From positions 144,065 to 208,064 of the forward strand of contig CAYUVV010000001.1 of the NCBI GenBank assembly GCA_964448295.1: a DNA stretch of 64,000 bases, written 5' to 3'. The notes under the pieces are model-generated. The model searched no databases. It was not told the DNA's origin and saw nothing but the letters and a program-made list of their open reading frames with translations. Numbering within the stretch: position 1 is the first letter of the stretch; every line of letters starts with the position of its first letter. The stretch is from an uncultured Candidatus Saccharibacteria bacterium. Lineage in GTDB: Bacteria; Patescibacteriota; Minisyncoccia; Phycocordibacterales; JACOZG01. Shown piece by piece: positions 17,866-61,423 of this stretch. The position numbers and the translations under genes were made by a program.

Positions 17866-17946
17866 AGAAAAGAATGGAAAGTTGATATGATTGAAGTGCA
17901 AGTCATACGACCATTATATCACTTTCCATACATTATATAGTATAAT

Positions 17947-18147: not shown

Positions 18148-18150
18148 TTT

Positions 18151-19711: not shown

Positions 19712-19715
19712 TAAT

Positions 19716-21866: not shown

Positions 21867-21871
21867 TATAG

Positions 21872-21958
21872 CAATGCCGCCGCCAAAAATTCCGTCCGTC
21901 CAAGCGAGGGCGTGGCGGAAGGAGGGGGTTGGGGGGAGGAATTCCGCGCCGTCCGAGC
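21872..21958 (-). repeat. Structured ~85-bp repeat, copy 2 (inverted relative to copy 1; 6 bp after the stop of the Z1-like gene)
   Basis: Reverse complement aligns with copy 1 over its whole length, with poly-C tract variation. Confidence 0.8.
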
Positions 21959-47297: not shown

Positions 47298-49056
47298 AAC
47301 GAGCGGTTTCCGTCAAATATTTTTTTCGCAGACGAACGTGTTGTGGTGTAATTTCGAGATATTCGTCGTCTGACATAATTTCCAATCCTCGTTCAATCGT
47401 CATCCGCAGAGGCGGCGCAAGATAAATTTTTTCATCCGAGCCAGCGCTCCGCATGTTAGTCAACTGTTTGCCGCGGGTGGGATTAACCACCATTTCCTCA
47501 CCTTTGGCGGTGTTGCCAATCACCATTCCCTCGTACACATCCTCGCCCGGGCCAATGTAGAGCGTGCCTCGGTTTTGCAAATTGGCTAGTGAAAAACCGA
47601 GGGCTTTACCCGTCGCCATCGAGGTCATTGAACCTGTTAAACGTTTTTCAATCGCGCCAGCGTATGGGCGAAAACCGACTACGCGACTGGCGAGCAGGCC
47701 TTCGCCCTTGGTGTCGACAACGAACTGCCCGCGATAGCCAAGCAGGCCGCGCGTTGGACCCTCGAGGGTCAGACGAAGCAGGGGTGGCGCCGATTTCACA
47801 CTGGTGAGATGCACCCCGCGCCGTCCAAGCTTTTCAATCACTGGTCCCTGTGCCGACTCCGGAATTTCAATTATTACCTCTTCAAATGGCTCGGACTTTA
47901 CTCCGTCCAGTTCTTTAATAATCACTTGAGGTTGAGAAACCGAGAGCTCGAAACCCTCGCGGCGCATATTTTCGAGCAAAATCGCGATATGCAATTCGCC
48001 GCGACCGGCGACTCGCATCGTGTCGTTGCCAAATTCAACCCGCAAACCGACGTTTACCTCTAGCTCTTTTTCCAAACGTTCTCGAATTTGCCGGCCGGTA
48101 ACAAATTTGCCTTCCCGCCCACCAAAAGGTGAATCGTTGACAAGAAAATCGAGAGTAATAGTCGGATCGTCTACCCGAATAGTCGGCAACAAGGGGCTGT
48201 CGGGTTGAGCGCAAATTGTATCTCCAATATAAATTTCCGATACTCCGGCGAAAATCGCGATATCGCCCGCCATCACTTCCGCCACCGGCCGTCGGGTTAA
48301 ACCGTCGAAAGTGAAGAGTTTGCTCACTCGACCTTCACGCATCGTGCCGTCCGTTTTTTTTACAAAAACCCTGTCCCCGTCTTTTACAGTCCCTTCGTAA
48401 ACGCGGATTATCGCTAAACGTCCTAGAAAATTATCGTAAGCCAGATTAAACGGTTGGGCACGGAATGGTAGTGCCGTCGGTTGCGCGGCGGGTGGTACAC
48501 GCTCCAATATTAAATCTAAAAGTGGGGTGATGTTTTGCCGCTCGTCTTGTAAATTTTTGATGGCCACTCCGTCTTTGCCCACAGCATAAATAACGGGAAA
48601 ATTGAGCTGTTCTTCGTTTGCTCCCAATTCGAGAAATAACTCCAAAATTTCGTCGTGCGCGCGCGCTGGATTAGCCGCCGGTTTATCAATTTTATTTAAG
48701 ACCACGATCGGCCGATGGCCAATCTCCAAAGATTTTTTGAGCACAAAGCGTGTTTGCGGCATCGGCCCCTCTTGCGCGTCAACCACCAAGAGCACGGAAT
48801 CAATCGAGCGGAGAACGCGTTCCACCTCGGACCCAAAATCGGCATGACCCGGAGTGTCCACGATATTAATTTTTGTTCCTCGGTAATTAACCGAGGCGTT
48901 TTTGGAATAAATCGTGATGCCTCGCTCGCGCTCGAGCGCGTTTGAGTCCATAGAAACTCCGGATCCCACCATTCCAGTTTGGCGCAAAATAGCGTCGGTT
49001 AGAGCAGTTTTACCATGATCAACGTGAGCGATAATCGCAATATTCCTAACTTCCAT
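47266..49056 (-). CDS. typA: Translational GTPase TypA/BipA
   Basis: VRNIAIIAHVDHGKT, DSNALERERGITI, C-terminal LRKKYLTE; N-terminus trimmed to MEVRNIAII (track ORF began 48 codons upstream). Confidence 0.9.
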   Translation of the reverse strand: MEVRNIAIIAHVDHGKTALTDAILRQTGMVGSGVSMDSNALERERGITIYSKNASVNYRGTKINIVDTPGHADFGSEVERVLRSIDSVLLVVDAQEGPMPQTRFVLKKSLEIGHRPIVVLNKIDKPAANPARAHDEILELFLELGANEEQLNFPVIYAVGKDGVAIKNLQDERQNITPLLDLILERVPPAAQPTALPFRAQPFNLAYDNFLGRLAIIRVYEGTVKDGDRVFVKKTDGTMREGRVSKLFTFDGLTRRPVAEVMAGDIAIFAGVSEIYIGDTICAQPDSPLLPTIRVDDPTITLDFLVNDSPFGGREGKFVTGRQIRERLEKELEVNVGLRVEFGNDTMRVAGRGELHIAILLENMRREGFELSVSQPQVIIKELDGVKSEPFEEVIIEIPESAQGPVIEKLGRRGVHLTSVKSAPPLLRLTLEGPTRGLLGYRGQFVVDTKGEGLLASRVVGFRPYAGAIEKRLTGSMTSMATGKALGFSLANLQNRGTLYIGPGEDVYEGMVIGNTAKGEEMVVNPTRGKQLTNMRSAGSDEKIYLAPPLRMTIERGLEIMSDDEYLEITPQHVRLRKKYLTETARSKARRQYEDS

Positions 49057-49356
49057 TTGGTTAAAAAACCAGGGCTCTCGGCCCCAGATTTTTAAGATGA
49101 TACGGTAAAATAAAGACGGGGTCAAACGGGCCGACGCCAGATTGTTTCGATTGAGCGCTGACTGTCGAAAGTCCAATCGTGTTCGGCCGGTGCCAGCCAA
49201 ATATCGGGAAAATTTTGAGCGCGCGCTTAGAAATTGGGGGATGATTGCGTAAGAGAATGAATGATGTCTACCTCGAGGCCGAAGAATGAATCAAAAATTT
49301 TATTTATTGGTAACTTAGTTTCGCTGATTAAATTTGTATAATTGGGTTATCCATCA

Positions 49357-50055
49357 CTACTCTTTTAGCACAAAGGGATTGTAACTGATACCTCTGTCAT
49401 ACACATCAATTCCTTCTGCTCGTTTGAGTTTTTTTACAATCATGTATGTAACGGGCGTAAGAACCACTTCATACGCAACTTTTGCAAGATAGCCAGACAA
49501 TATAAGGGTAGTCAATCCGGAGAAAGGTATTGTTCCCGCGAATGCGATGATTCCAAAGATAACGCTATCCACTCCTTCACCAACAATTGTTGAGCCAATT
49601 GTCCTCATCCAAAGACGTCTTCCATTGCTCCAGATTTTCATTCGAGATAGCACATATGAGTTACTAAACTCTCCTACAAAGTAGGCAATAATTGATCCAA
49701 GAACGATTCGCGGTACGGTACCCAAAATAAGTTCGTAAGCCCCTTGATTCTGCCAAAAGACCGGGGACGGTAGAATTTGGACAAAGTAATAACAAAATGT
49801 CATGAGTACAAGAGCAGCAAAACCCGACCAGATTATTTTTCGGGAAGCCTTGTAGCCATACACTTCTGTCAGAATATCTCCAAAAATATAGCTTATTGGG
49901 AAAATGAAAATTGCTCCTGCAAACACAAACGGGCCAATCTGAACCAGTTTAACTGCGACCGTGTTCGAAATCATTAATACAGCAACAAAGAGAATTCCTA
50001 TGAAGAGAAAGTATTTGCTGTTTTTTGAAATATCGTGTGTTTGGTGGGATTCCAT
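49357..50055 (-). CDS. yhhQ: Queuosine-precursor transporter YhhQ/DUF165 (VUT family)
   Basis: FVFAGAIFIFPISYIFGDILTEVYGY motif; start trimmed to internal Met to remove overlap with the upstream MTase. Confidence 0.7.
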   Translation of the reverse strand: MESHQTHDISKNSKYFLFIGILFVAVLMISNTVAVKLVQIGPFVFAGAIFIFPISYIFGDILTEVYGYKASRKIIWSGFAALVLMTFCYYFVQILPSPVFWQNQGAYELILGTVPRIVLGSIIAYFVGEFSNSYVLSRMKIWSNGRRLWMRTIGSTIVGEGVDSVIFGIIAFAGTIPFSGLTTLILSGYLAKVAYEVVLTPVTYMIVKKLKRAEGIDVYDRGISYNPFVLKE

Positions 50056-50065
50056 GGTGATTAAA

Positions 50066-50764
50066 TTATAACACTTTAAGCTTGCTCCTGATAATCCGAT
50101 ACATTCTCCACTTGTAACCAATATCTTCAATTTCTATGTGCCTTTCTGGAACGTACCCATATTCTCCCAGCATTTCTTCGAACTCTGAAAAATCACTTTC
50201 TCCCTTAAAATTAACGTGGGTCATTATTATAATCCCCCCATCATTTAAATACTTACCAACCTCTTCGAAAAAAGTGTGATGAATTTTATATTCAGGATCA
50301 TAAAGAGCGGACTCCACTATTCCTTTAATCGGAAAATCTGTGATAGGAAGATTTGCAATAACGACATCAAACTTTTCTTCCCCTTTAAGACTGCTAAACA
50401 GGTCACTTTCAAAAACTGAGACCACGGCCTCTACACCATTGAGATGAATATTTTCTTTTGCACACAATACCGCTACGGGATTTATATCTAAAGCAATAAC
50501 ATTTTGAGCACCATCTTTTGCCGCCTGAATAGCTTGCACGCCCGTACCTGTCCCTATATCAAGAATCCGCTTCCCCTTAAGATTACCGAAAATCGTATGC
50601 AATTTCTCGGAAGTTCGTGAGAAATTACTTCGTGGAGGAAAGACATCCTTGCAAGTCTTTATTTTTAAACCCTCAATATCAATAATTTCGGATGCCTGGT
50701 TTTTAATTTCTTGTAGAAATTTTTTGGTTATATCGGGATTTACTTTAGCCATATAGATATTCAT
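50066..50764 (-). CDS. Class I SAM-dependent methyltransferase (small MTS domain, RsmC/PrmC-like) with degenerate motif IV
   Basis: ILDIGTGTGV motif I; motif IV reads ANLPI rather than NPPY/F. Confidence 0.65.
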   Translation of the reverse strand: MNIYMAKVNPDITKKFLQEIKNQASEIIDIEGLKIKTCKDVFPPRSNFSRTSEKLHTIFGNLKGKRILDIGTGTGVQAIQAAKDGAQNVIALDINPVAVLCAKENIHLNGVEAVVSVFESDLFSSLKGEEKFDVVIANLPITDFPIKGIVESALYDPEYKIHHTFFEEVGKYLNDGGIIIMTHVNFKGESDFSEFEEMLGEYGYVPERHIEIEDIGYKWRMYRIIRSKLKVL

Positions 50765-50909
50765 ATTTTACAATCTTTTCAACCTTTTTGATAGACTTTT
50801 GCAGTTTAGCTTCCTTCACCGAATTTGTGTAGTTGACTTCCCTCCGCTTCTGCTCTGTGTTGCGGTTGGGATCTGGACTTCGTAAGCGTTCGCGGTATGT
50901 TCGTGTCGT

Positions 50910-52208
50910 ATGGAAACAATGGCAATACCCCGCCGAAATACGGCGACTCCCGGCCTTCAAGAACAGGAGCCTATCCGCTATTGCCTCTACGCCCGCAAAT
51001 CGAGCGAAGCCGAAGAGAAACAAGCCTTGTCCATCGATTCTCAAATTAAGGAAATGCTGACCATTGCCCAGCGCGACGGTTTAAACATCATCGAGATGTA
51101 TCGTGAGTCGCACTCAGCCAAAGACTGCGGCCAACGGCCAGTTTTCAACAAATTGCTCATTGATATCCGCGAGGGCAAGTTTAACGGTATTCTCGTCTGG
51201 CATCCCGATCGGCTGAGCCGGAACGCCGGCGACCTTGGTACGGTTGTGGATCTGCTTGACCAGAAGAAATTAATCGAGATTCGCACTTACAGCCAGCGTT
51301 TTACCAACAACCCGAATGAGAAATTCCTGCTCATGATTCTCGGCTCTCAAGCCAAGTTGGAAAATGATAACAAGAGCGTCAATGTAAAGCGCGGCCTCAA
51401 GACCAAGTGCGAACTCGGGCTTTGGCCCTCGGTGGCGCCAACCGGATACCTGAACTCCAAGAACAAAGATCAGAAAGGCGTGGTGTTCGTGGATCCGGAT
51501 CGAGCGCCAATTATCAAAGAACTTTTCCGCAAAGTGGCTAATGAAGGCTGGAGCGGCCGAAAGATTTACCGATGGCTCAAGGAGATTAAATTTGTCACCC
51601 GCACCGGCAAGCCGCTCACCTTGAGCAATGTTTATGTGATTCTCAACAATCACTTCTACCACGGCTCGTTTGAGTATCCCAAACAGAGCGGTCGCTGGTT
51701 CCAAGGCAGGCATATGCCGCTAATCTCCAAAGACTTGTTCGATGAGGTCCAGAAACAGCTCCACCTGCAAATTAAGGCCCACAATCGTAACAAAGAATTC
51801 GCCTTCACTCGATTGCTTTTCTGCGGCGTCTGTGGCTCAGGCGTGACGGCGCAGGAAAAATTCAAGAGTTTGAAGGATGGCTCGATCGCCAAGTATATTT
51901 ACTACGGCTGTACCCGGGCCAAAAATATCAACTGCGAGAAAATTCTCATTGATCAGTTAACCAAAATCATTGACCAAATCGATCTCGATCGCTCGGGCAT
52001 CAAGAAAAAACTTGGAGCCGAGATCGAGCGGCATAAAAAATTTCACTCAGGGATTATGGGAAAAAGCGAAGAAGCCTATCGCGCGAAAGATGCCGATATC
52101 AGAAATTACGCGAAGTATCTGCTAATCGAAGGATCGATATTTGAGAAGCGGGATTTGCTGGGGTGTTTGAAGAGTAAGCTCTCTCTTAAGAATAAGATAA
52201 TCTACTAA
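50910..52208 (+). CDS. Large serine recombinase (resolvase N-domain + recombinase domain + Zn ribbon)
   Basis: YARKSS catalytic region, DRLSRN, C-terminal Cys cluster CGVCGSG...YYGC. Confidence 0.85.
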   Translation: METMAIPRRNTATPGLQEQEPIRYCLYARKSSEAEEKQALSIDSQIKEMLTIAQRDGLNIIEMYRESHSAKDCGQRPVFNKLLIDIREGKFNGILVWHPDRLSRNAGDLGTVVDLLDQKKLIEIRTYSQRFTNNPNEKFLLMILGSQAKLENDNKSVNVKRGLKTKCELGLWPSVAPTGYLNSKNKDQKGVVFVDPDRAPIIKELFRKVANEGWSGRKIYRWLKEIKFVTRTGKPLTLSNVYVILNNHFYHGSFEYPKQSGRWFQGRHMPLISKDLFDEVQKQLHLQIKAHNRNKEFAFTRLLFCGVCGSGVTAQEKFKSLKDGSIAKYIYYGCTRAKNINCEKILIDQLTKIIDQIDLDRSGIKKKLGAEIERHKKFHSGIMGKSEEAYRAKDADIRNYAKYLLIEGSIFEKRDLLGCLKSKLSLKNKIIY

Positions 52209-52963
52209 GATAGTAGCCCGGCCTGCTCTCGTGACATACCTTTTGCACCCTCATTTCTTATTTTCTTCCAGATTCTTTCAACTCCATCAATGTGCCCTTT
52301 TTCTCTTTCGCGATTGCGTTGTGCTTCTTCGATAACTTTTGACCATCTCAACATCATAAGGACTGCCCCTTCCCTAACTAAGTCAAAGAAGTCCTTAGGC
52401 CTAAGCATAATTGTTTTGTGTTCCCTTATGGCGAACTCAGCTTCCATCTTTTCCTTATTTTCGTCCGATAAGTCATTGGCTGCTAGCGCAATAAAAATAT
52501 CTTCCGTCGGCTCACCAAATCCAAAGAAGTGGACTAGGGCATTTCTAAATTTATATAGACGCTCACTACTAACTGCAGTAAAGAGACCTTTATAATATTG
52601 ATTCTCGGTATTTATACAGAATTCCTCATACCAAACCCTTGGTCTTTTATTGGTGGTACCCGTCTGATTTAAATAGCTAAACCAATAACTGGCTAATACA
52701 TCGATTAAACTGAAGGTCACGATCATTTGTATACGCTGGGGAATCGGAGTAATCTCTTTGTCATTTTTAAAGAAAACGGTGTTACATTCTTCAATTACAC
52801 TCATTAAGAAATCTACGACCTCCTTTTCTCTAGCTGTGTGCTGAGATATATATTGCTTCCTGTTATCATACATATAGAGGCTACAGTTAGGATCACCCGT
52901 CCCATAACAACGCTTATATTTCTTTCCGCTTCCACACGGGCATTTATCATTTCTTCCCGTCAT
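52205..52963 (-). CDS. SEC-C-motif protein with uncharacterised C-terminal domain
   Basis: N-terminal KCPCGSGKKYKRCYG; remaining 220 aa unknown. Confidence 0.5.
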   Translation of the reverse strand: MTGRNDKCPCGSGKKYKRCYGTGDPNCSLYMYDNRKQYISQHTAREKEVVDFLMSVIEECNTVFFKNDKEITPIPQRIQMIVTFSLIDVLASYWFSYLNQTGTTNKRPRVWYEEFCINTENQYYKGLFTAVSSERLYKFRNALVHFFGFGEPTEDIFIALAANDLSDENKEKMEAEFAIREHKTIMLRPKDFFDLVREGAVLMMLRWSKVIEEAQRNREREKGHIDGVERIWKKIRNEGAKGMSREQAGLLS

Positions 52964-53233
52964 AAAATTTCTCAGATAATTTTGACCCCTCTTGGTCCTT
53001 CGATACTTTTCTAGACTGCTGTCCCTCCTGAATGAAATCCGAACTTTTTACCAAACGAACCCTGACGAATGAAGCCGCCCCGCCGCCGCTCGCTGACGCT
53101 CGCCACCGAGCAAAACACTCTTTACATTTTCTGATTTGCGCGCGCCCCCGAAAAATTTTTCCAATTAAGGAAAAGAGTATTTTGCTCGGCTCTGCTCTGA
53201 ACGAGCAGGCGGCGGGGCTGGCCTCTATTTTTT

Positions 53234-53316
53234 GCTCGGGCGCGGCGGAATTCCCCCCACACCCTCCTTCCGCCGTGTTCTTGCGGGAACGGACGGAATT
53301 TTTGGCGGCGGTTATT
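53234..53316 (+). repeat. Structured ~85-bp repeat, copy 3 (overlaps stop of helicase gene)
   Basis: GCTCGGGCGCGGCGGAATTCCCCCCACACCCTCCTTCCGCCGTG...GGACGGAATTTTTGGCGGCGG. Confidence 0.8.
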
Positions 53317-56300
53317 TTGATTTTAGCATCTCCTTTATCTCCTGAACACACTGCTCCAAATCATTTTGGAGTTGATACACCCAAAATCGTTTGACTTGCC
53401 ATCCATGCATGATGAGATGCTGATCTCGTTTCAAATCCGAGAGCAAGCGACCTCCGTCAATGTCGCGATGCCACATCTCGCCGTCAATCTCAATATCAAT
53501 CGGGATTTCAGAATCAAGAACGGCAAGGTCAAGACGATATTGGTACAACGGATATTGCGAGATGGTTCTGATACCTTCCCGCGCGAGGGCGTCATACAAA
53601 ACTTCCTCCCACGGCGACTCAAATTTTCCTCCGCTTTTATTTTTATTTTCCGGTTCCAACTCCTCGACATACTTCACGAAATCCGAAAGATGCGAGATGC
53701 CGGATTGAGCGCAAGCAACCCTGTCGCCGACAATATGCAATTCCGCCCTCGCACGGGTAATCGCGACATTGAATAGATTTACCGTATTTCCCAAAAATCC
53801 TAACGAGCGTTGCTGGATTTTACGCGATACAACCGGAGAGAAAATCATAATGTCGCGTTGGTCGCCTTGATATTTATGCGCGGTATCAACTGTAAAATCC
53901 AGTTTTCGCAACTGCGCCGCGTCTATCTTTTGCTCTACCAAATCTCTGATTTTGTTCGCTTGCTCTCGGAAGGGCGTAACAACGCCGAGCGATACGGAGT
54001 AGTCGTCGCCGTGGGCGAAAATTCTTTTGATAATTTCTTCAATCAACGCAACAATCGCTTTCGCCTCGTCCAAATTGTATGCGCTTCCAGCAGATGGCCG
54101 AATAACCTCGCCGACGACATCGTGCCAAATGAGCGCGTCTGGATGTCCGGCGCCGCGCAACCTACGATAATCCGTCCAAACGCTCAATTTCCCGCCATAA
54201 AACTTTTTGTTGGAGAAACCGATAATTTCCGCGCGGCTCCTGTAGTGTTCGAGTAAGTGAACGAATTTTGCACCCGTTCCTACAACGCTTCGCGCAAGCT
54301 CAAAAAGAGAGTTTATGCTGTAAAGAAAGCGTTGGTCGTCGGTCGAGGTTAGGCCAATCTGCCGTTGCAACTGTTGATCGTCCGCGCGATGCAAAAGAGA
54401 GATGTGCGTGAGCTGATTTGGGTCGCCCACAATCACGGCTCGCTTCGCGCGATAAAGTAGCGGAATTGCGGACGCGATGTCGCATTGAGACGCTTCGTCA
54501 ATAATCACGACATCAACGGCTCCTGCGCTCAACGGGAGTGCGTGACGGACGGATAGATTTGTAACGGCCATCGCCGGAAACGCCCTTACTACGCTTTTGA
54601 ACATTCGCTTGCGCTCATTTCTCAACTCCTCCGCAAGTTCGCCTCCTGTTACATCACCCTCTAATCGGCGCACGATACTCACATAGTCCGCAATATCGCG
54701 CCGTTCCTTAGGGCCAAGCGACTTGAGACGACGCTTCATCAACGCATCAACATATATGACGCTAATATCTATCGCGCGTTCTTTGCTTTTTGTGATTCGC
54801 TCCCGCAAAACTTCTACGCGCGCTTCGTTCTCATTCTCTCGCACAATTCCTAGAAGTTCAGATTGATTATCAATCCACTTTTTCAAGGCGCGGCAAATTG
54901 TCAAAAGCTCTCGGCAGTTATGAACGGAATTGAGCGAGATATTGATGCCTTCGACTGGCGCAAGCAGAAGTAATGATTTTGCTGTTTCCAAAACTCGTTT
55001 TTCCAGCGTAGAACCGAAAAGCGCAAGAACGCGCGAAATAAAACCGGGTCCCTCGTCAATTTCCTTTACTAAGCGACCCAACGAAACAAGAGTGTTATAA
55101 AATTCCTGTTTCCCTTCGATTTTTTGATACGAGTTGAGGTTGCGAGAAATTGACGAAGGCAATTCCGCTCTGACAGATTCAAGCGCGGCATCAAGGCGAC
55201 TTATGCGATTCCTGCGATCAAGAATGCGGAATAGTGATTGTTGCGCCTCTTTTTCTTCCGAACGCACTACCTCAAGCTCTTTTTTGTATTCGCCAATTTC
55301 TCGCTCTAGCGATTGGCTGTTGTAGCTTGAGGCGCGTTCAATCGCGGACAAAAGTGCTTCCGCAAATTCAATCTCGCGTTCCTTCTGCCCATATTTGAGA
55401 ATGACCGGCTCGGATTGAAGTCGCAATAATCTTTCAATGACGACATCAACCGCTTTGTGGTTTTTACTTCCGAATAAAACGCTTTCGTTATGAAGTAGCG
55501 CGTTGGCAATAATATTAAGAACGATTTGCGACTTTCCGGTTCCGGGCGGTCCGGTAATGACACTAACCGTATTGTTGAATGCACTTTTGACCGCGCCTCT
55601 TTGTTCATCGTTCAGTCCGGTTATTTCCAGCAATCCATCGCCGTTGTCCTCTTTGACTTCTGCGTTTCTATCAAGAATTACGCGCCATACATCATTCGGA
55701 GCGGTGGTATCTCGTAATTCGCTCAATTCTTGCTCTAGCCCACCAGTGTATTTTGAATCCGCGCTCCGAAAAATAACGCCAAGAGGCAAAACACCGCCCT
55801 CCGCTTTTAATTCTGTTGTTTTGCCGCCTAGAATATCTTTTGAGAAAGGAACCTCTTGCGGCAAAAGCTCGGCGAACGCACCCAAAATAGTTTTGAGATT
55901 TTGCCCTCTGCTTTTCTCATCGTCCCATGATTCCAAAACCGCTTCGGCGATTTGCTTTCTTTCCTCAACGCTCGTCAGTAAACTTTTATCTGTGAGAAAA
56001 GCAGAGTTGATTCTCGGTCTATCAGATTGCAAAACGAAAGCGTGTCCGGTTTCTGTTTGAACGAGGTCTATACCGAAAATCAGGATGGGCTGGATTATTT
56101 GACCCGACCATCCTCGTCGCGATTGTTCAATATGTTTAATGTGGCAAGGAAAGCCATAGAAATACGAAAGTGGACTGCGGCTCCATCGGGGACCGCTGAT
56201 GAACGCTTGGATTTTTTCATTTTGACCCTCAAATTCCAGTTTTTCCTTGCCGGACGCAATCCACTCTTTTTCCATTGCAGGCACCTGCAAAAACTCCACT

Positions 56301-56500
56301 CCATCTTTTGACGAGTAGAGTGTGATTTCTCCGGAGTTCTCAACGGAAATGCATGAGCCGTAATATTTGAGGAGTTTTTGCCAGCGTGAGGATGTAGGGT
56401 CGGTGTGAACCACCGGAGTCTTGTTTTCTGTTTTTCGGGCGGTTGCCGTTCGCCTATATCCGCCTCGACCTCTGTATTTGTTGCGATAGTAGGTTGCCAT
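53312..56500 (-). CDS. SF1 (Upf1/DNA2-like) helicase fused to C-terminal DUF559/Vsr-like endonuclease domain; N-terminal about 300-aa DUF4011-like region
   Basis: Walker A ITGPPGTGKSQ, Walker B VVIIDEASQ, motif VI region TAHKYQGDQRD, C-terminal YRLDLAV...IEIDGEMWH...D...K nuclease-like core. Confidence 0.8.
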   Translation of the reverse strand: MATYYRNKYRGRGGYRRTATARKTENKTPVVHTDPTSSRWQKLLKYYGSCISVENSGEITLYSSKDGVEFLQVPAMEKEWIASGKEKLEFEGQNEKIQAFISGPRWSRSPLSYFYGFPCHIKHIEQSRRGWSGQIIQPILIFGIDLVQTETGHAFVLQSDRPRINSAFLTDKSLLTSVEERKQIAEAVLESWDDEKSRGQNLKTILGAFAELLPQEVPFSKDILGGKTTELKAEGGVLPLGVIFRSADSKYTGGLEQELSELRDTTAPNDVWRVILDRNAEVKEDNGDGLLEITGLNDEQRGAVKSAFNNTVSVITGPPGTGKSQIVLNIIANALLHNESVLFGSKNHKAVDVVIERLLRLQSEPVILKYGQKEREIEFAEALLSAIERASSYNSQSLEREIGEYKKELEVVRSEEKEAQQSLFRILDRRNRISRLDAALESVRAELPSSISRNLNSYQKIEGKQEFYNTLVSLGRLVKEIDEGPGFISRVLALFGSTLEKRVLETAKSLLLLAPVEGINISLNSVHNCRELLTICRALKKWIDNQSELLGIVRENENEARVEVLRERITKSKERAIDISVIYVDALMKRRLKSLGPKERRDIADYVSIVRRLEGDVTGGELAEELRNERKRMFKSVVRAFPAMAVTNLSVRHALPLSAGAVDVVIIDEASQCDIASAIPLLYRAKRAVIVGDPNQLTHISLLHRADDQQLQRQIGLTSTDDQRFLYSINSLFELARSVVGTGAKFVHLLEHYRSRAEIIGFSNKKFYGGKLSVWTDYRRLRGAGHPDALIWHDVVGEVIRPSAGSAYNLDEAKAIVALIEEIIKRIFAHGDDYSVSLGVVTPFREQANKIRDLVEQKIDAAQLRKLDFTVDTAHKYQGDQRDIMIFSPVVSRKIQQRSLGFLGNTVNLFNVAITRARAELHIVGDRVACAQSGISHLSDFVKYVEELEPENKNKSGGKFESPWEEVLYDALAREGIRTISQYPLYQYRLDLAVLDSEIPIDIEIDGEMWHRDIDGGRLLSDLKRDQHLIMHGWQVKRFWVYQLQNDLEQCVQEIKEMLKSK

Positions 56501-56502
56501 AA

Positions 56503-56709
56503 TTATGAAAGAAGATTGCGCGGATCAACGCCGAGGGCATCAGCCAATCTTTCGAGATTTTTAACTGTAGGATTTCTAATTCCGCGCTCTATTCCGCTAA
56601 TGTAGCTCCGGTGAACGGCAAGTTTCTTGGCGATGTCCCCTTGGGACATACCTTTTTGCAAGCGGATTTTTCGTAGTTGCTCTCCAAGTTTTTTAGTAAG
56701 TGGCTTCAT
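56503..56709 (-). CDS. XRE-family HTH regulator (immediately upstream of, and co-directional with, the helicase)
   Basis: HTH_XRE; start set to the internal ATG (MKPLTKKLGEQL). The longer track ORF uses a non-ATG start that runs into the repeat. Confidence 0.7.
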   Translation of the reverse strand: MKPLTKKLGEQLRKIRLQKGMSQGDIAKKLAVHRSYISGIERGIRNPTVKNLERLADALGVDPRNLLS

Positions 56710-56797
56710 AGTGTCTTGTTGATATGTTAGCACTTGTTGCACTATTGGTCTATAGAGTATTATAATACTCGTATGGTAATCGCCGCTCCCGCAAGAA

Positions 56798-56870
56798 CAC
56801 GGCGGAATTCCCCCCACACCCCCCCCCCTTCCGCCGCGCCCTCGCTTGGGCTGGCGAATTTTTTGGCGGT
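56798..56870 (+). repeat. Structured ~85-bp repeat, copy 4 (about 85 bp upstream of the HTH gene start)
   Basis: CACGGCGGAATTCCCCCCACAC-C10-TTCCGCCGCGCCCTCGCTTGGGCTGGCGAATTTTTTGGCGG; 5' end diverged. Confidence 0.75.
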
Positions 56871-57589
56871 TAACTAATCCTTACTATCTCCGCCAGCAAA
56901 ACATCCATATCATTTGAAAAATTTATCTGCGTTTTGTTTGGCAGAGATTCCTTATTCCTAATTTTTGTATGTAGGTATGAGTCAGCAATTTTTCGAGACG
57001 AGTTCTCCAAGTGAGACATTGAATCTTTAAAACTCTTTGTGCCGTAATTGTTCGCGACTTCCGTAAAGGTATTTAGATTAAAAATTGGCGGAACATGATC
57101 AAGTATGGCTCGCACCAATAAAATAACCGAAATATAGTTGCCCACAGAGTAGGCGTGATCCAACTCTGAAAGCATTTGAATCAACCTTGAAAAGTCGAGC
57201 CGTCCTTTTTTCTTTTTCAAAGCTTGAAAACGTTTTTTGTCTATGAATCCTCCATCGACGGTAACGAGCTTAATTTTACTATCCTTGAAGCACTGGTTGA
57301 GTTGAAAGTCTTTCTCTACCTCCGCCAATTTATCGCTCTTAAGCCGCCATTCATCCTTTGCCACTTTGGAAGTTCGCCGATCTTTCGCTATCGCTGAGCG
57401 TAGTTTTGTAATATTCGGACTTCCAAGGCCAGCGCTTTTAAAATCGGATATAACTTGTTTTAATGTTGCTCCGGTGTCTTTTTTGACTGCATAAAAATAC
57501 AAAAAGCAGACCGCTCTATCGGCAATTTTTGTAGCTCGTCGGCTCATGCAATGAGCAAAGGATTCAGTGATCGCGCTATTTTTCTTCAT
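56870..57589 (-). CDS. Hypothetical protein, paralog group member 3 (shared about 50-aa domain at N-terminus)
   Basis: 239 aa; ADRAVCFLYFYAVKKDTGATLKQVISDFKSAGLGSPNITKLRSAI aligns with segments of the two upstream proteins. Confidence 0.5.
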   Translation of the reverse strand: MKKNSAITESFAHCMSRRATKIADRAVCFLYFYAVKKDTGATLKQVISDFKSAGLGSPNITKLRSAIAKDRRTSKVAKDEWRLKSDKLAEVEKDFQLNQCFKDSKIKLVTVDGGFIDKKRFQALKKKKGRLDFSRLIQMLSELDHAYSVGNYISVILLVRAILDHVPPIFNLNTFTEVANNYGTKSFKDSMSHLENSSRKIADSYLHTKIRNKESLPNKTQINFSNDMDVLLAEIVRIS

Positions 57590-58067
57590 CTATTTTCAAA
57601 AGAGATTCAAAATATTTTGCTCCCTTTCTATTCAATTTATAAACTACCGCCTTACCTTTGACGCGAGTTGAATCTCCCTCCAGATATTTCTGTAGCGATT
57701 CTGTAATCGCTTTAGACACATTTGGCGTTTTAACTCCAACCCGTAGCTCAGAGGTAATCCTTGCAACATCACCGGTAGTAAGCCCTTGCCGGGGGAAGTA
57801 TTTATAGTAAATGTAGAATGGCAATAAGACTCTGCCGGGGATTGAAACTTTATCAAGTATTTTTTCCTCAATTTTGTCCGCATCTTCGCAATTCTTAATC
57901 TTGTTCACGATGGCTAAAATATGATCATTCGAATCATTGCTAATTTTAGCTGGCTTCTTGACTAAAGACTGTTTCTGTTTTGTCGGAGTATTAAACAACG
58001 CCGCAAGGCATTCGTCCGCTAAAGACTTTATCTCATTGAGCTTTGATACAAGTTTGTCGTTCGTCAT
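57576..58067 (-). CDS. Hypothetical protein, paralog group member 2
   Basis: 163 aa; coiled-coil N-terminus; shared domain PGRVLLPFYIYYKYFPRQGLTTGDVARITSELRVGVKTPNVSKAI...GKAVVYKLNRKG; Lys-rich. Confidence 0.5.
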   Translation of the reverse strand: MTNDKLVSKLNEIKSLADECLAALFNTPTKQKQSLVKKPAKISNDSNDHILAIVNKIKNCEDADKIEEKILDKVSIPGRVLLPFYIYYKYFPRQGLTTGDVARITSELRVGVKTPNVSKAITESLQKYLEGDSTRVKGKAVVYKLNRKGAKYFESLLKIDEEK

Positions 58068-58069
58068 AT

Positions 58070-58597
58070 TTATTTCGTCGTTTTATTCTTCTTGCGGCGA
58101 GTAGTACTTTTGTATTTGCTTTTCTTGACCATATCCTCGGGAAATCCACCCTGCAAAACTTTCATACCGGTATTAGTAATGTAAAAACTGCCTTTCTTTA
58201 CCGGATCCGGTGCTATCCAGCCACTGCTTATAGCCCACTTAAAATCGCGTGTCAGGTTTGCCGGAATCAGTTCTCCAGCGTCACGAAAAAGACTTTTAAT
58301 TTCGCCCTGCTGAAAGGAGTCTTTATTGTGAAATTCTTTAAGGAACCCCGCCAATGTAAGAATCTTGTCGGGATTGCGCTTAGGTGCGTGCCTGTTTAGA
58401 TACTCTGCCGCAGATTCCCTTTGTGAACCAGTGCGACGAATAGATACTGGCGGCGCTGTCTTCACGACGCCATGTTCTTCGCCCCCAGCCGAAAGACAAA
58501 GAGCCATTATTTGTCCTGCAGTGTTTTCGTCAATCAATTTCTCATAAGATAGCCCAGCACCCTTGATGGTTATCTTTATTTTTGCTTGCTTATCCAT
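58070..58597 (-). CDS. Hypothetical protein, paralog group member 1
   Basis: 175 aa; shared domain PDKILTLAGFLKEFHNKDSFQQGEIKSLFRDAGELIPANLTRDFKWAI...KGSFYITNTGMK; basic tail KKSKYKSTTRRKKNKTTK. Confidence 0.5.
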   Translation of the reverse strand: MDKQAKIKITIKGAGLSYEKLIDENTAGQIMALCLSAGGEEHGVVKTAPPVSIRRTGSQRESAAEYLNRHAPKRNPDKILTLAGFLKEFHNKDSFQQGEIKSLFRDAGELIPANLTRDFKWAISSGWIAPDPVKKGSFYITNTGMKVLQGGFPEDMVKKSKYKSTTRRKKNKTTK

Positions 58598-58599
58598 AA

Positions 58600-58680
58600 G
58601 TTAAATGGTTATATGGTTAATAATAATTTGTCAACTTGTCTACAAGTTAGCAAAAGTGGCCACAGTTGTCAAGATCAACC
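58600..58680 (-). promoter_or_regulatory. Candidate promoter/operator for the paralog trio
   Basis: Minus-strand TTGACA hexamers at two positions, weak -10s (TATAAC), and an imperfect palindrome TGTCAACTTGTCTACAAGTTAGCA. Confidence 0.35.
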
Positions 58681-58681
58681 G

Positions 58682-58706
58682 AAAAAGCGGCCGATAGCCG
58701 CTTTTT
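58682..58706. terminator. Bidirectional rho-independent terminator separating DUF262-HNH gene from the trio
   Basis: AAAAAGCGGC-cgat-AGCCGCTTTTT. Confidence 0.6.
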
Positions 58707-58721
58707 CAGAGAATAAAAGTT

Positions 58722-59831
58722 TTAAATCCCCGACTTTGTTCGATTATGTTCCCTGCATAGCATTTGGCAATTTTCTGCGGTTGTTTTACCGCCCTCGTGC
58801 CAAGGGGTAATATGGTCGGCTTCCATTTCCTCAATATCCCACTTTTGCTTTTCTTTCTTCTCTTTTTTGCACCACGGACAAATGCCATTTTGCCGCTCGT
58901 ACGCTTCGCGCTTCATTTTGTCGGTAAAAGCGCGGATTGAAAGATATTTTTCTTGTCTTGTTAAAACATACGGATAGATGCCGGATTTTTTGGTAACATC
59001 CTCGTCCTGCATCAATTCTTTGATTTCAGCTTCCAATTTCGCAGGATTTAATTTTTTGTCTTTGAATTTGTTGTAAAGTTCGCCCCAGTTCACATGCGCC
59101 ATCTCCTTGCGGTAATTAGGAAAAGTTTTGCGCACCCAAGCAATCACATCTTGAAAGTACTCCCAAAGCTCATCAGCATTTTTGTCGTGCTGATGGCGGG
59201 CCATATAGTCCTCAATTTTACCCTCGTTTATCCACGAAAGCGCAGTTTCGAGATATTCCTGACGGATCGGCGAACCGCTCAAAAGCGCACCGCCGTCATT
59301 GGCGAGCAGATACGCCGCGCAGTTTGATTTGCTGAATTTGAGTTTTGCGTCAGAAAGCCACGGGCCGGTATAAACCGCGTTGCGAATTTCTTGATCGGTC
59401 AATTTTTCTCCGGCAATGTTAATGATCCTGAACCAATCCAGCCGCTCTTTGTCTGTCCCTTCGCAGAAATAAATCATGAGTTCATAATCCAAAATCTGGT
59501 TTTGTTCTTCTTTGGTGAGATTGTGAAAATATCTTTCGTTCAGCGAGAAATCGCCGGTTACATACTGCCCGATGCTGATGGTGCGCTGTTGGCCGTCCAG
59601 CACTTCATAGCCGCCGTCTTCGCGCACCATCCAATACATCACATTGAGCGGAAAGTTGTTTTTGATGGTTTCAATTACGGCATTGCGCTGTTTTTCTTTA
59701 TAAACGAATTCACGCTGATATTTGGGACGGATATCCAGCTTGCCGTCATATGCCACAACGCCCTCCTCGGCGCTGTCCTTGTAGCCAGCAATCACTTTAC
59801 GGATCGGAATTTTGTGGAGTTCAATTTTCAT
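58722..59831 (-). CDS. DUF262 (ParB-like) + HNH nuclease (GmrSD/SspE-like architecture), candidate restriction component
   Basis: DGQQRTISIGQYV DUF262 motif; C-terminal CPWC...ADHITPWHEGGKTTAENCQMLCREHN HNH. Confidence 0.8.
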   Translation of the reverse strand: MKIELHKIPIRKVIAGYKDSAEEGVVAYDGKLDIRPKYQREFVYKEKQRNAVIETIKNNFPLNVMYWMVREDGGYEVLDGQQRTISIGQYVTGDFSLNERYFHNLTKEEQNQILDYELMIYFCEGTDKERLDWFRIINIAGEKLTDQEIRNAVYTGPWLSDAKLKFSKSNCAAYLLANDGGALLSGSPIRQEYLETALSWINEGKIEDYMARHQHDKNADELWEYFQDVIAWVRKTFPNYRKEMAHVNWGELYNKFKDKKLNPAKLEAEIKELMQDEDVTKKSGIYPYVLTRQEKYLSIRAFTDKMKREAYERQNGICPWCKKEKKEKQKWDIEEMEADHITPWHEGGKTTAENCQMLCREHNRTKSGI

Positions 59832-59832
59832 A

Positions 59833-60906
59833 TTATTTCTTTACTTTCTTATTTCTAATTACAACACGAACATAAGTTGGCTTACCATTTATTGCCCCTT
59901 CCTTATCCTTGATAAGGCCATGCTCTTTGTATGGAACATTGCTATTGCGTCTAATATCATTGGCACTTAATATCTCAAACTTGTCGGGATTGTATTTAGC
60001 AAGAAAAGTAATCGGCACTCCCATTGCACCGTCATAATCCATTGGAATATCAGAATATCTTGAAACCTCTATAGCATCATAATTGTCATATTTTGGGTAT
60101 TCTTTTGGGTTGTATTTTTTATATAAGGTGAGCTCCTCGTGTCTCTTTGTTGTATCTAAATTGGTGTACCAAAGTATTCTCCCCATACTGAAGTATTTAA
60201 TGCCATTTACAATTTTCTTTCTTGATTCTGTGGGTATGTCATAATCCATCGGCACCTGAAACCATTTTGTGCCACCATTGTCGTAGCCCAGCCATAATTT
60301 ATTGCTTTTTATAAGTTTAAAAATCTCTTTGTAGGTAGAGGCATTTTGATCGCCAAGAATAAGAAATTTTTTATTGTATTCCACAAGTTGGGCAACATAC
60401 TCGCGAAAAAGCGAAAACGGCGGATTCGTTACTACGATATCAGCCTGTTTCAGCAGTTCTATACACTCGTTGCTCCTAAAATCTCCATTGCCTTTAAGCG
60501 GTGTGGCGGCATTTTTATTGTATTTTAATAAATGTTTTACATCTTCAAGATCAATCGCTCCGTTTTTGTCAGAATCCGGCACTTCGTTAATTTCAATCTT
60601 CATTGGCTCTTTGCCTTTTGGCTTCAAGCCCGCTATTTCAAAGAGCGGCAGTTGATTGCCGACTATTGGAGACGGGCTGTAACTTGTGGTGATAAGTTTC
60701 TTTAATCCGAGTGCGTTGAAGTTGCCCGCGAAATATTTGAAAAAATTGCTCTCAAACGGGTCATCGCAATTGCAATACACAATCTTGCCGCGAAATTGAT
60801 TTTTGTAGTGTTTGAGCTCTTTCTCAATATCAACAAGCTGGGTGTAAAACTCGTCTGTTTTAGCGCTTCTCGCTGAATGTAAGTTTTTGTTTAATGATTT
60901 AGTCAT
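59833..60906 (-). CDS. DNA N6-adenine methyltransferase, gamma-class-like (NPPF)
   Basis: N-terminal DEFYTQ (motif X-like), VVTNPPF motif IV; 2 bp from the DUF262-HNH gene and 3 bp from the C-protein gene. Confidence 0.65.
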   Translation of the reverse strand: MTKSLNKNLHSARSAKTDEFYTQLVDIEKELKHYKNQFRGKIVYCNCDDPFESNFFKYFAGNFNALGLKKLITTSYSPSPIVGNQLPLFEIAGLKPKGKEPMKIEINEVPDSDKNGAIDLEDVKHLLKYNKNAATPLKGNGDFRSNECIELLKQADIVVTNPPFSLFREYVAQLVEYNKKFLILGDQNASTYKEIFKLIKSNKLWLGYDNGGTKWFQVPMDYDIPTESRKKIVNGIKYFSMGRILWYTNLDTTKRHEELTLYKKYNPKEYPKYDNYDAIEVSRYSDIPMDYDGAMGVPITFLAKYNPDKFEILSANDIRRNSNVPYKEHGLIKDKEGAINGKPTYVRVVIRNKKVKK

Positions 60907-60908
60907 AA

Positions 60909-61121
60909 TTACTTCTGTATTAAATCATCAACACCAACGCCGAGCGCATCCGCGATTTTGCGGAGCGTCTCAACGCGGGGGTCAGGTGTTGAACCGGTTT
61001 CTATCTTTGCAATGGTGTGTAAAGTAACACCGGCCAATTTGGACAGCTTATCTTGTGAAATACCGAGCTTGTCTCGATATTTCTTTATGTTCTTTGCTAT
61101 GGTGGATAATTCTTTTGCCAT
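60909..61121 (-). CDS. XRE-family HTH, probable controller (C) protein
   Basis: 70 aa; shares ISQDKLSKLA...LHT(V)..I...D....E(T)...IA.AL.V.VDDL with the 17947 HTH. Palindrome AGTAAAGTTTTACT 4 nt upstream of ATG. Confidence 0.8.
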   Translation of the reverse strand: MAKELSTIAKNIKKYRDKLGISQDKLSKLAGVTLHTIAKIETGSTPDPRVETLRKIADALGVGVDDLIQK

Positions 61122-61352
61122 ACCAGTAAAACTTTACTATAATGTGTTTAGCGTGGTATTATTATTGTATGAAAAATAATCCTTTTCGTCAATCTGTTTT
61201 AGGGAGTTCCCTAACCTTGCCCGCGCACTGGGCTGGTGGGGCAATGGCAAGAAAAAATAACTCCGCCAAAGCGAGACCAGCCCCGCCAATGGCGGGGCTG
61301 GGCGAGCGAACCCTCTCGTCTGAAAATTCGCGGTTTGTTTTGTCAGAAGCTG

Positions 61353-61423
61353 CTGCCAGACTTGGATTCGAACCAAGATTCACGGCTCCAAAGGCCGCTG
61401 TCCTACCATTAGACGATCTGGCA
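61353..61423 (-). tRNA. tRNA-Gln (anticodon TTG), no encoded CCA
   Basis: Hand-folded: acceptor TGCCAGA/TCTGGCA (U1-A72 as in bacterial tRNA-Gln), D-stem GTCT/GGAC, anticodon stem GCGGC/GCCGT with loop CTTTGGA, T-arm CTTGG-TTCGAAT-CCAAG. Confidence 0.8.

What the first reader, a model, noticed from the sequence alone, without database searches (positions are those of the whole stretch)
49200..61423. Mosaic accessory island ending at the 3' end of tRNA-Gln
Between typA (start at 49056) and tRNA-Gln (61353-61423, minus strand) lies an AT-richer block of at least five modules in mixed orientation. The modules are yhhQ plus a small MTase, a divergent large serine recombinase, a SEC-C protein, the repeat-flanked HTH-helicase cassette, the paralog trio, and a DUF262-HNH/MTase/C-protein R-M. 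Like island A it abuts the 3' end of a tRNA, the classic integration hotspot. The only recombinase is a serine recombinase, not a tyrosine integrase, and I could find no duplicated tRNA 3' segment at the far border. That suggests either ancient integration with decay or accretion of modules mediated by the repeats.
Basis: partly seen in the sequence, partly recalled or inferred. Interest (0 to 1): 0.5.

Follow-up and report, generated by a model that had tools for sequence, protein, structure and literature searches.

The report
Defence island stacked beside tRNA-Gln
A 12.2-kb block of foreign, mostly anti-phage genes sits exactly between typA and the 3' end of tRNA-Gln in this small-genome (CPR) bacterium. 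It looks like two mobile elements stacked at that tRNA, the older one carrying a serine integrase whose relatives in many other CPR genomes also face tRNA 3' ends.

Summary
The island is real. The closest relative available (L166, TypA 84% identical) is syntenic on both flanks but has tRNA-Gln only 87 bp upstream of typA. The window therefore carries a 12.2-kb insertion (about 49152-61352) that ends at the tRNA discriminator base. GC is 0.44 against 0.50 in the flanks, and per-gene GC3 ranges from 0.33 to 0.62.

The gene calls are confirmed, but the "paralog trio" is not. The serine recombinase is not an oddity. It belongs to a very large, highly conserved CPR family (75-86% identity). In 15 of 15 informative loci this family faces the 3' end of a tRNA across a conserved att-like arm.

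That arm, followed by a decayed tRNA 3' fragment, lies inside the island at 52984-53045. A second degenerate tRNA-Gln 3' copy lies at the left border (49136-51).

My best reading is a tandem array. E1 (49.15-53.05 kb) holds yhhQ, a methyltransferase, the recombinase and a SEC-C protein. A newer, integrase-less E2 (53.05-61.35 kb) holds a helicase-nuclease cassette, three unknown genes and a C-M-R restriction system.

The helicase cassette sits between reciprocally chimeric copies of an ~85-nt hairpin repeat that also brackets the tRNA-Ala island.

This is a known kind of feature with an uncommon integrase type. Interest is moderate.

The parts
49097..49126 (-). typA promoter (TTGACC-17-TATCAT). 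Last stretch homologous to the empty-site relative on the left side.
49136..49151 (-). Degenerate copy of the tRNA-Gln 3' end (GCCAGATTGTTTCGA), cut at the T-loop. Left border of the island and candidate attL remnant. It may be orthologous to the 13-nt spacer in L166.
   Evidence: top 0.5-0.7% of windows
49357..50055 (-). YhhQ/Vut_1 queuosine-precursor transporter. GC 0.40. Cargo of unit E1.
50066..50764 (-). HemK2/Mtq2/PrmA-like small methyltransferase. GC 0.37.
50806..50909 (+). Conserved leader upstream of the recombinase gene. Homologous in L258, and the motif CTrGACT...GCG.T..TATGGAAA recurs in other loci. Possibly the other att arm or a regulatory region.
50910..52208 (+). Large serine recombinase, 432 aa, with Resolvase, Recombinase and Zn-ribbon domains. 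Aligns to SPbeta SprA over residues 29-405.
52205..52963 (-). SEC-C-motif protein. Occupies the variable slot convergent with the recombinase gene.
52984..53021 (+). att-like arm of the recombinase element (GACCCCTCTTGGTCCTTCGATACTTTTCTAGACTGCTG). It is 96.7% identical over 30 nt to L258. In L260 the same arm lies 10 nt from an intact tRNA-Gln 3' end.
53019..53045 (-). Decayed tRNA 3' fragment ending at the T-loop (..ATCCGAAC|TTT). Proposed boundary between unit E1 and unit E2.
   Evidence: not significant on its own
53072..53225 (.). Long imperfect hairpin followed by a T-run.
   Evidence: z = -3.3
53234..53311 (+). Repeat B: canonical 5' arm, hairpin core, 'type-2' spacer TGTTCTTGCGGGAACGG, then tail.
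53312..56500 (-). SF1 helicase with a C-terminal MTES_1575/DUF559 nuclease. Resembles the helicase-nuclease part of MkoC, ProA and Hhe.
56503..56709 (-). XRE-type HTH regulator at the head of the helicase operon.
56783..56870 (+). Repeat C: 'type-2' 5' arm (reverse complement of the repeat B spacer, 16/17), hairpin core, canonical spacer, then tail.
56870..58597 (-). Three ORFs of unknown function (239, 163 and 175 aa), not detectably paralogous. The C-terminal domain of the 239-aa protein is a widespread uncharacterised domain.
58679..58709 (-). Terminator-like hairpin after the restriction gene.
58722..61121 (-). C-M-R operon: HTH C protein 60909-61121, EcoRI-like methylase 59833-60906, DUF262-HNH endonuclease 58722-59831. 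A palindrome AGTAAAACTTTACT lies at 61125-61138 and a promoter-like site at 61164-61192.
61278..61302 (-). 11-bp-stem hairpin between tRNA-Gln and the R-M operon.
   Evidence: z = -3.4
61353..61423 (-). tRNA-Gln(ttg), 71/71 identical to that of L166. Homology to the empty site resumes exactly at its discriminator base.

Best explanation
The 12.2 kb between typA and tRNA-Gln is a composite integrative island built by successive insertions at the 3' end (T-loop to acceptor end) of tRNA-Gln.

Unit E1 (about 49152-53048) holds yhhQ, a protein methyltransferase, a large serine recombinase, a SEC-C protein, a conserved att arm and a leftover tRNA 3' fragment. It is a stripped-down member of a very abundant CPR family of serine-recombinase elements. 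These elements insert with the 3' end of the recombinase gene pointing at a tRNA 3' end, and they usually carry DNA methylases or R-M systems.

Unit E2 (about 53049-61352) has no integrase. It entered later between E1 and the tRNA, so the old tRNA 3' piece stayed attached to E1 and then decayed. E2 is a string of three self-regulated operons: XRE plus helicase-nuclease, three unknown genes, and a C-protein-controlled type II R-M.

The helicase operon was probably itself dropped into a pre-existing ~85-nt hairpin repeat by a reciprocal exchange in the hairpin core.

Shown: the insertion, its borders, the recombinase family's tRNA geometry, the att-arm homology, and the chimeric repeats.

Inferred: the order of events, that the recombinase did the inserting, and that the cargo is anti-phage defence.
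For: - Empty site. L166 is syntenic from GT4 to typA and from VanY to DnaX, but its tRNA-Gln lies 87 bp upstream of typA. Homology stops at window 49126-49151 and resumes at 61353. tRNA-Gln directly upstream of typA also occurs in L039 and L075.
- Composition. GC is 0.439 against 0.50, and GC3 ranges 0.33-0.62 between genes.
- Recombinase family size. At least 8000 relatives score E<1e-60, and the top 120 are 75-86% identical.
- Recombinase family geometry. Across 53 loci there are no tRNAs in 334 kb upstream. A tRNA lies downstream in 15 loci, always on the opposite strand. A GGTC motif lies 16-33 nt beyond the tRNA end in 12/15, against 4/89 control tRNAs.
- att arm. Window 52984-53021 matches L258 (score 74) and the L260 arm plus tRNA-Gln (score 57), against a null of 17 +/- 3.4.
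- Truncated tRNA 3' fragments followed by TTT recur in L258, L189, L207 and L172.
- Left-border tRNA-like repeat has p about 0.005-0.007.
- Variable cargo lies between recombinase and tRNA in other loci: a helicase, a methylase fusion, RelA/SpoT, an SMC-like ATPase, and the same DUF262-HNH plus EcoRI-like R-M in L195.
- 51/53 loci carry methylase or R-M homologues nearby.
- Reciprocal arms of repeats B and C.
- The helicase gene occurs elsewhere at 81% DNA identity in an unrelated context.
Against: - The fragment at 53019-53045 is not significantly similar to this genome's own tRNA-Gln. Its status rests on homology to the L258 and L260 sites.
- The junction at the intact tRNA (61305-61352) resembles the att arm only weakly (p = 0.05) and lacks GGTC.
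- E2 has no recombinase and no significant flanking repeat.
- No second att arm, direct or inverted, was found.
- The left-border repeat could simply be the orthologue of the L166 spacer CAGAGTTGTTTGA.
- The nearest relative is only 84% identical in TypA, so the number and order of events cannot be resolved.
- No read-level evidence of excision exists. Logan contig breaks fall in GC-rich or poly-C stretches and in the conserved tRNA, so they may be technical.
Confidence: 0.6

Rival explanations
1. One element, not two. The whole 12.2 kb is a single serine-recombinase island (SCC-like) that moves or moved as a unit. The internal arm plus tRNA-like fragment would be part of the element's own att region, or a relic carried along.
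For: L258 has the same arm plus truncated fragment plus TTT, again followed by more defence genes and not by an intact tRNA. The same R-M pair travels with this recombinase family in L195 and L258. There is only one recombinase in the block.
Against: In L260 and 14 other loci the arm abuts an intact tRNA. Composition differs sharply between modules. The helicase gene and the R-M occur separately elsewhere.
Confidence: 0.2
2. Hotspot capture without site-specific integration. The typA/tRNA-Gln gap is a defence hotspot filled piecemeal by homologous recombination through conserved flanks and repeats. The recombinase would be a passenger or have another role, such as inversion or resolution.
For: No intact att pair is present. 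VanY-adjacent R-M occurs in distant CPR without a tRNA or recombinase (L111, L125). The recombinase is more conserved than TypA, which could also mean a host function.
Against: The strict geometry between recombinase and tRNA, and the fixed-distance motif across six different tRNA species, are hard to explain without site-specific insertion. Truncated tRNA fragments are the usual footprint of integration (10.1101/2020.12.28.424599).
Confidence: 0.15
3. The block is ancestral and L166 lost it by deletion, so it is not an insertion in the window's lineage.
For: Only one close relative is available. L166 has a tRNA-like 13-mer abutting its tRNA, which could be a deletion scar.
Against: tRNA-Gln immediately upstream of typA also occurs in Spechtbacteria- and Wolfebacteria-labelled MAGs. 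The block's GC is 6 points below both flanks and it is made of mobile or defence genes with much closer relatives in unrelated CPR than the flanks have.
Confidence: 0.05

Closest known systems
tRNA-linked genomic/defence islands built by tandem integration (tycheposons of Prochlorococcus; 10.1101/2020.12.28.424599)
   Same: Streamlined genome. The island lies next to a tRNA 3' end. Newer elements push older ones inward, with partial tRNA copies between units. Cargo includes defence genes. A minority of tycheposons (27 of 937) use large serine recombinases.
   Different: Here the integrase is a serine recombinase family that seems to be the rule rather than the exception. No replication module (primase or helicase-primase) is present. 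The partial tRNAs are badly decayed. The host is a CPR bacterium.
SCC elements (SCCmec; CcrA/B/C large serine recombinases)
   Same: Serine-recombinase islands at the 3' end of a conserved gene, with mosaic cargo including R-M, and composite or tandem arrays. The best NCBIfam hit of the recombinase is CcrB.
   Different: The score is 133 bits against a cut-off of 900, so it is not a Ccr orthologue. The target is a tRNA, not rlmH. There is a single recombinase gene. No clear ISS-type direct repeats are present.
Temperate-phage large serine integrases (SPbeta SprA, A118, TP901-1)
   Same: Full domain set and alignment over residues 29-405 to SprA. PHROG 95 integrase.
   Different: Under 30% identity to any GenBank phage integrase. 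No phage structural genes are in the island. Characterised serine integrases mostly target protein-coding or intergenic sites rather than tRNA ends (my own knowledge, not tested here).
C-protein-controlled type II R-M systems and mobile R-M units
   Same: HTH, methylase and endonuclease in one tight operon, with a palindrome just upstream of the C gene. Full-length matches to PADLOC MTase_II and REase_II models.
   Different: The endonuclease is a DUF262(GmrSD_N)-HNH fusion, a fold better known from modification-dependent enzymes. Its specificity is unknown.
Integron cassettes/attC or other hairpin-site insertion
   Same: The helicase cassette lies between hairpin-forming sites with variable loops. 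Their outer arms have been exchanged reciprocally, as in attL/attR.
   Different: No IntI-type tyrosine recombinase is in the window. The cassette is 3.5 kb with its own regulator and promoter. The tRNA-Ala island is bracketed by inverted, not direct, copies.

Membership tests
Integrative genomic island at a tRNA gene | Present/absent polymorphism: an empty site in a related genome | tested here: met
   L166 has tRNA-Gln 87 bp from typA with both flanks syntenic. L039 and L075 show the same adjacency.
Integrative genomic island at a tRNA gene | [quoted passage not shown] | tested here: met
   Homology to the empty site resumes at the discriminator base, 61353.
Integrative genomic island at a tRNA gene | Flanking direct repeats derived from the tRNA 3' part | tested here: inconclusive
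   There is no exact repeat. A degenerate 14/17 copy lies at the left junction, p about 0.005-0.007. An internal fragment is supported only through homology to L258 and L260.
Integrative genomic island at a tRNA gene | Own integrase gene | tested here: met
   An intact 432-aa large serine recombinase is present. It lies in E1 only; E2 has none.
Integrative genomic island at a tRNA gene | Composition deviating from the flanks | tested here: met
   GC 0.439 against 0.50.
Large serine recombinase | N-terminal resolvase catalytic domain with the YxRxS..Q serine motif | tested here: met
   PF00239 at 1.8e-23, residues 26-168. The motif YARKSSEAEEKQALSIDSQ is read from the translation.
Large serine recombinase | Recombinase domain plus zinc ribbon and coiled-coil C-terminal part | tested here: met
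   PF07508 at 2.8e-17. PF13408 is weak (23.4 bits against a cut-off of 25.3). The alignment to SprA runs to residue 405.
Large serine recombinase | attP x attB recombination at a 2-bp core | not testable with these tools
   Only comparative att-arm evidence is available.
SCC/Ccr recombinase | Reaches the CcrA/B/C equivalog score | tested here: not met
   CcrB 133 bits against a cut-off of 900.
Tycheposon | Integrase, tRNA site and tandem arrays with partial tRNAs | tested here: inconclusive
   The geometry fits, but the partial tRNAs are decayed.
Tycheposon | Replication module (primase, polymerase or replicative helicase) in many members | tested here: not met
   None was found in Pfam, PHROG or NCBIfam scans of all island ORFs.
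Prophage | Structural, packaging or lysis genes | tested here: not met
   PHROG hits were limited to the integrase and generic methyltransferase or transporter families. The island DNA has no match in GenBank phages.
Type II R-M with C protein | Methylase plus endonuclease plus HTH regulator in one operon | tested here: met
   EcoRI_methylase 4.6e-141. PADLOC REase_II PDLC03418 at 6.6e-131 over the full length. HTH_3 at 1e-15.
Type II R-M with C protein | C-box operator | tested here: inconclusive
   A palindrome AGTAAAACTTTACT lies 4 nt upstream of the C start codon. No comparative support was sought.
Mokosh / Hhe / ProA helicase-nuclease defence proteins | Full-length match to the family model | tested here: not met
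   Only the helicase and nuclease parts match. ProA scores 214 bits against a cut-off of 1500, and Hhe 127 against 2000. The MkoC match covers model positions 423-963 of 1136.
Integron | IntI integrase with attI and an array of attC-bounded cassettes in one orientation | tested here: not met
   No tyrosine recombinase lies in or next to the island. Repeat copies A and A' are inverted.

The most novel reading that the evidence does not exclude
A single, highly conserved serine-recombinase family serves much of the CPR as a general vehicle for defence genes. It would use the near-universal tRNA T-loop/3' end as its landing site, which would explain Gln, Ser, Asp, Glu, Trp and Asn targets. It would build tandem arrays and also serve integrase-less units in trans. 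In addition, the ~85-nt hairpin repeats would be secondary docking sites where XRE-led defence cassettes are swapped in and out by reciprocal exchange in the hairpin core.
Probability: 0.2. Interest if true: 0.75.

Novelty: new variant of a known kind. Interest (0 to 1): 0.5.

Why it matters
CPR bacteria have tiny genomes but a high density of defence systems (PMC12259885). How they acquire and exchange these systems is poorly described.

If this abundant serine-recombinase family really targets tRNA 3' ends and carries variable R-M or defence cargo, it would be a main route of defence-gene flow in a large part of the bacterial tree.

It would also be a source of compact (~430 aa) serine integrases with predictable, conserved landing sites. 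The island itself is otherwise an ordinary tRNA-linked accessory island.

Tried and rejected
- Synteny around typA. In 80 GTDB representative genomes none is closer than 72% TypA identity and no synteny is kept.
- VanY relatives in JGI metagenomes. All are <=63% identical. They were useful only for showing typA|VanY and VanY-tRNA-Gln-DnaX arrangements and the VanY-adjacent R-M in L111 and L125.
- Exact or near-exact tRNA-Gln duplications, end-to-end direct or inverted repeats, a second att arm, and a repeat flanking E2. None exceeded chance.
- A 13-nt match, TTCGCGGTATGTT (50889) against TTCGCGGTTTGTT (61327). I judged it chance-level. The first copy lies in the conserved recombinase leader.
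- Logan contig breaks at 53093/53104, 56817, 56958, 59827 and 61382-61405 as evidence of population polymorphism. I rejected this. The tRNA is identical in the sister species, and the other breaks lie in GC-rich or poly-C sequence.
- The ~85-nt repeats as structured RNAs. Their folding is no better than shuffles, and there is no Rfam hit.
- The repeats in IMG/VR and in all fetched loci. Only chance 17-19-mers were found.
- Paralogy of the trio. Rejected.
- AlphaFold of the 239-aa protein without an alignment. pLDDT was 37, so it is unusable.
- Profile searches of that protein's family against PDB and Pfam. Nothing was found.
- Look-up of the source record through P0241. It is not on record.


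Full report
**What is there**

The window comes from a Patescibacteria (Paceibacteria-like CPR) genome. The best TypA matches are MAGs of that group.

ARAGORN and Rfam place tRNA-Gln(ttg) at 61352/3-61423 on the minus strand, with its 3' end pointing left. The following genes lie between typA (47266-49056, minus) and the tRNA:

| Coordinates | Strand | Gene |
|---|---|---|
| 49357-50055 | - | YhhQ/Vut_1 |
| 50066-50764 | - | HemK2/PrmA-like small methyltransferase |
| 50910-52208 | + | large serine recombinase (the only plus-strand gene) |
| 52205-52963 | - | SEC-C-motif protein |
| 53312-56500 | - | SF1 helicase fused to an MTES_1575/DUF559 nuclease |
| 56503-56709 | - | XRE regulator heading the helicase operon |
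| 56870-58597 | - | three ORFs with no family match |
| 58722-61121 | - | operon of HTH C protein, EcoRI-like methylase and DUF262-HNH endonuclease |

The three unknown ORFs are not detectably paralogous (blastp E>0.5, Smith-Waterman z<1).

GC is 0.439 in the block, against 0.50 on both sides. Per-gene GC3 runs from 0.33 to 0.62.

**Is it an insertion?**

Yes. The closest relative I could reach is L166 (GCA_964461325.1, TypA 84% identical). On the left it shares GT4, a Na/Ca exchanger, a hypothetical gene, PCMT and typA. On the right it shares VanY, a hypothetical gene, DnaX, Dus, an amidase and YkuD. Its tRNA-Gln, 71/71 identical to the window's, lies only 87 bp upstream of typA.

Left-side homology covers the typA promoter and ends at 49126-49151. 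Right-side homology resumes exactly at the tRNA discriminator base, 61353. The inserted block is therefore about 49152-61352, or 12.2 kb.

tRNA-Gln directly upstream of typA, in the same orientation, also occurs in two more distant lineages (L039, L075). The adjacency is therefore the older state.

L166 in turn has 1.6 kb of small ORFs on the other side of the tRNA that the window lacks. Both sides of this tRNA are variable.

**The recombinase is not a mismatch for a tRNA site**

The recombinase has the full domain set of a large serine recombinase, including the serine motif YARKSS..Q. It aligns to SPbeta SprA over residues 29-405.

It belongs to a very large CPR family. Essentially all 8000 scored candidates have E<1e-60, and the best 120 are 75-86% identical. 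That is more conserved than TypA is between the same kinds of genomes. No GenBank phage integrase exceeds 30% identity.

I examined 53 loci encoding relatives: 51 IMG/VR contigs plus L258 and L260. The results were as follows:
- No tRNA gene lies in the 334 kb upstream of the recombinase gene.
- Fifteen loci have a tRNA downstream.
- In all fifteen the tRNA is on the opposite strand, with its 3' end facing the recombinase.
- The targets are Gln (six counting the window), Ser, Asp, Glu, Trp and Asn.
- A GGTC motif lies 16-33 nt beyond the tRNA end in 12 of 15 cases, against 4 of 89 control tRNAs.

The gap between recombinase and tRNA ranges from about 130 nt to 4.7 kb. It holds varied cargo: an SF1 helicase, a methylase fusion, a RelA/SpoT-like protein, an SMC-like ATPase, and in L195 the same DUF262-HNH plus EcoRI-like methylase pair as here.

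In 51 of the 53 loci, DNA methylase or R-M homologues lie within 8 kb, mostly upstream.

**Remnants inside the island**

Window 52984-53021 lies just past the SEC-C gene. It is 96.7% identical over 30 nt to a site in L258/L259. It also matches L260 at the point where that sequence sits 10 nt from an intact tRNA-Gln(ctg) 3' end.

Alignments of window 52973-53048 to those sites score 74 and 57, against a shuffle null of 17 +/- 3.4. They run on into the tRNA part.

In the window and in L258 the arm is followed not by a whole tRNA but by a fragment that stops at the T-loop (..CGAAC|TTT). Similar truncated fragments lie 60-90 nt from the intact tRNA in L189, L207 and L172. On its own, the window's fragment is too decayed to be significant against its own tRNA-Gln.

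At the left border, GCCAGATTGTTTCGA (49136-49151) matches the tRNA 3' end 14/17 with two gaps, in the right orientation. It scores in the top 0.5-0.7% of all 45-nt windows. It may equally be the orthologue of the L166 13-nt spacer, which itself looks tRNA-like.

I found no exact att repeats, no second arm, and no repeat flanking the right-hand part.

**Reading**

The simplest account is a tandem array of the kind described for tycheposons, where newer elements push older ones inward and partial tRNAs mark the seams (10.1101/2020.12.28.424599).
- E1 (49152-53048) carries the recombinase and ends in its att arm plus the displaced tRNA piece.
- E2 (53049-61352) came later, has no integrase, and is now fused to the working tRNA.

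It is not shown whether E2 used the E1 recombinase in trans, lost its own, or arrived by other means.

**The repeats**

An ~85-nt element occurs four times in the window:
- A, 17781-17868 (+), 18 nt after tRNA-Ala
- A', 21868-21958 (-)
- B, 53234-53311 (+)
- C, 56800-56870 (+)

Each copy has a hairpin CGGCGGAA / C-rich loop / TTCCGCCG containing GAATTC, then a 17-nt spacer, then a tail GGAATTTTTGGCGG.

A and A' are 92% identical inverted copies. They bracket the tRNA-Ala island, which holds XRE, a type II methylase, an endonuclease and a helicase.

B and C are reciprocal chimeras:
- B has the canonical 5' arm but a different spacer, TGTTCTTGCGGGAACGG.
- C has the canonical spacer but a 5' arm that is the reverse complement of the B spacer (16/17).

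This is what an exchange in the hairpin core between a canonical copy and a palindromic site on a circular 3.5-kb cassette would leave. A 25-bp terminal-inverted-repeat transposon that duplicated the loop is an alternative.

The repeats fold no better than shuffles and match no Rfam family. I treat them as DNA sites.

A 97%-identical helicase from another sample sits on a 3367-nt contig that ends inside a diverged copy of the repeat. An 88%-identical one (81% DNA identity) sits alone in an unrelated context, without XRE or repeats.

**Limits**

- Only one close relative was reachable.
- Logan contigs of the same strain break at 53093/53104, 56817, 56958, 59827 and 61382-61405. These points lie in GC-rich or poly-C sequence, or in the tRNA, which is identical in the sister species. 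I do not read them as polymorphism.
- The defence roles are inferred from family matches only. The helicase-nuclease matches only the helicase and nuclease parts of MkoC, ProA and Hhe, far below their curated cut-offs.

**Verdict**

It is a known kind of feature, a tRNA-linked mosaic defence island. The less common aspects are the abundant serine-recombinase family tied to tRNA 3' ends in CPR genomes and the hairpin-repeat-bounded cassettes.

Noticed in passing
window 17781-21958: The island next to tRNA-Ala is bracketed by 92%-identical inverted copies of the same ~85-nt hairpin repeat. It encodes XRE plus a type II methylase, an endonuclease and a helicase. No recombinase and no target duplication were seen.
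   Followed up: partly
window 58722-60906; L111 7502-9752; L125: The DUF262-HNH endonuclease is 88-92% identical to copies in distant CPR contigs, whose TypA is only 43-47% identical. The adjacent methylase is only 68% identical. GC3 also differs (0.53 against 0.40), which suggests the two genes of the operon have different histories.
   Followed up: partly
window 56870-57589 (residues ~110-238): The C-terminal ~125 aa of the 239-aa protein is a widespread domain with no Pfam or PDB match. It has 1645 representative clusters at 55-64% identity, fused to variable N-termini. Invariant residues include R120, D132, E142, R160, D164-H165, H207 and R211.
   Followed up: partly
window 50910-52208 versus 47266-49056: The recombinase (75-86% identity to more than 100 clusters) is more conserved across CPR MAGs than the translational GTPase TypA (84%, then <=78%). 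This fits recent spread of the element or strong constraint.
   Followed up: partly
window 17795, 21939, 53248, 56805: Every copy of the hairpin repeat carries GAATTC in its stem, and the island encodes an EcoRI-like methylase. GAATTC occurs 18 times in the window against 32 +/- 6 expected.
   Followed up: no
window 53072-53225: A long imperfect hairpin (z = -3.3) with a T-run lies between the tRNA-like fragment and repeat B. Two independent Logan assemblies stop inside its left arm.
   Followed up: no
L166 8224-9840: The sister genome has 1.6 kb with three small ORFs (72, 195 and 84 aa) between tRNA-Gln and VanY. The window has only 80 bp there.
   Followed up: no
L122, L123, L124, L143, L149, L158, L159, L163, L165: In more distant relatives tRNA-Gln lies between VanY and dnaX rather than between typA and VanY. 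The tRNA's position relative to VanY has therefore changed within the group.
   Followed up: no
L255 19968-21596; L172 12419-13774; L185: Several related loci carry a second, different large serine recombinase or two copies of the family close together.
   Followed up: no
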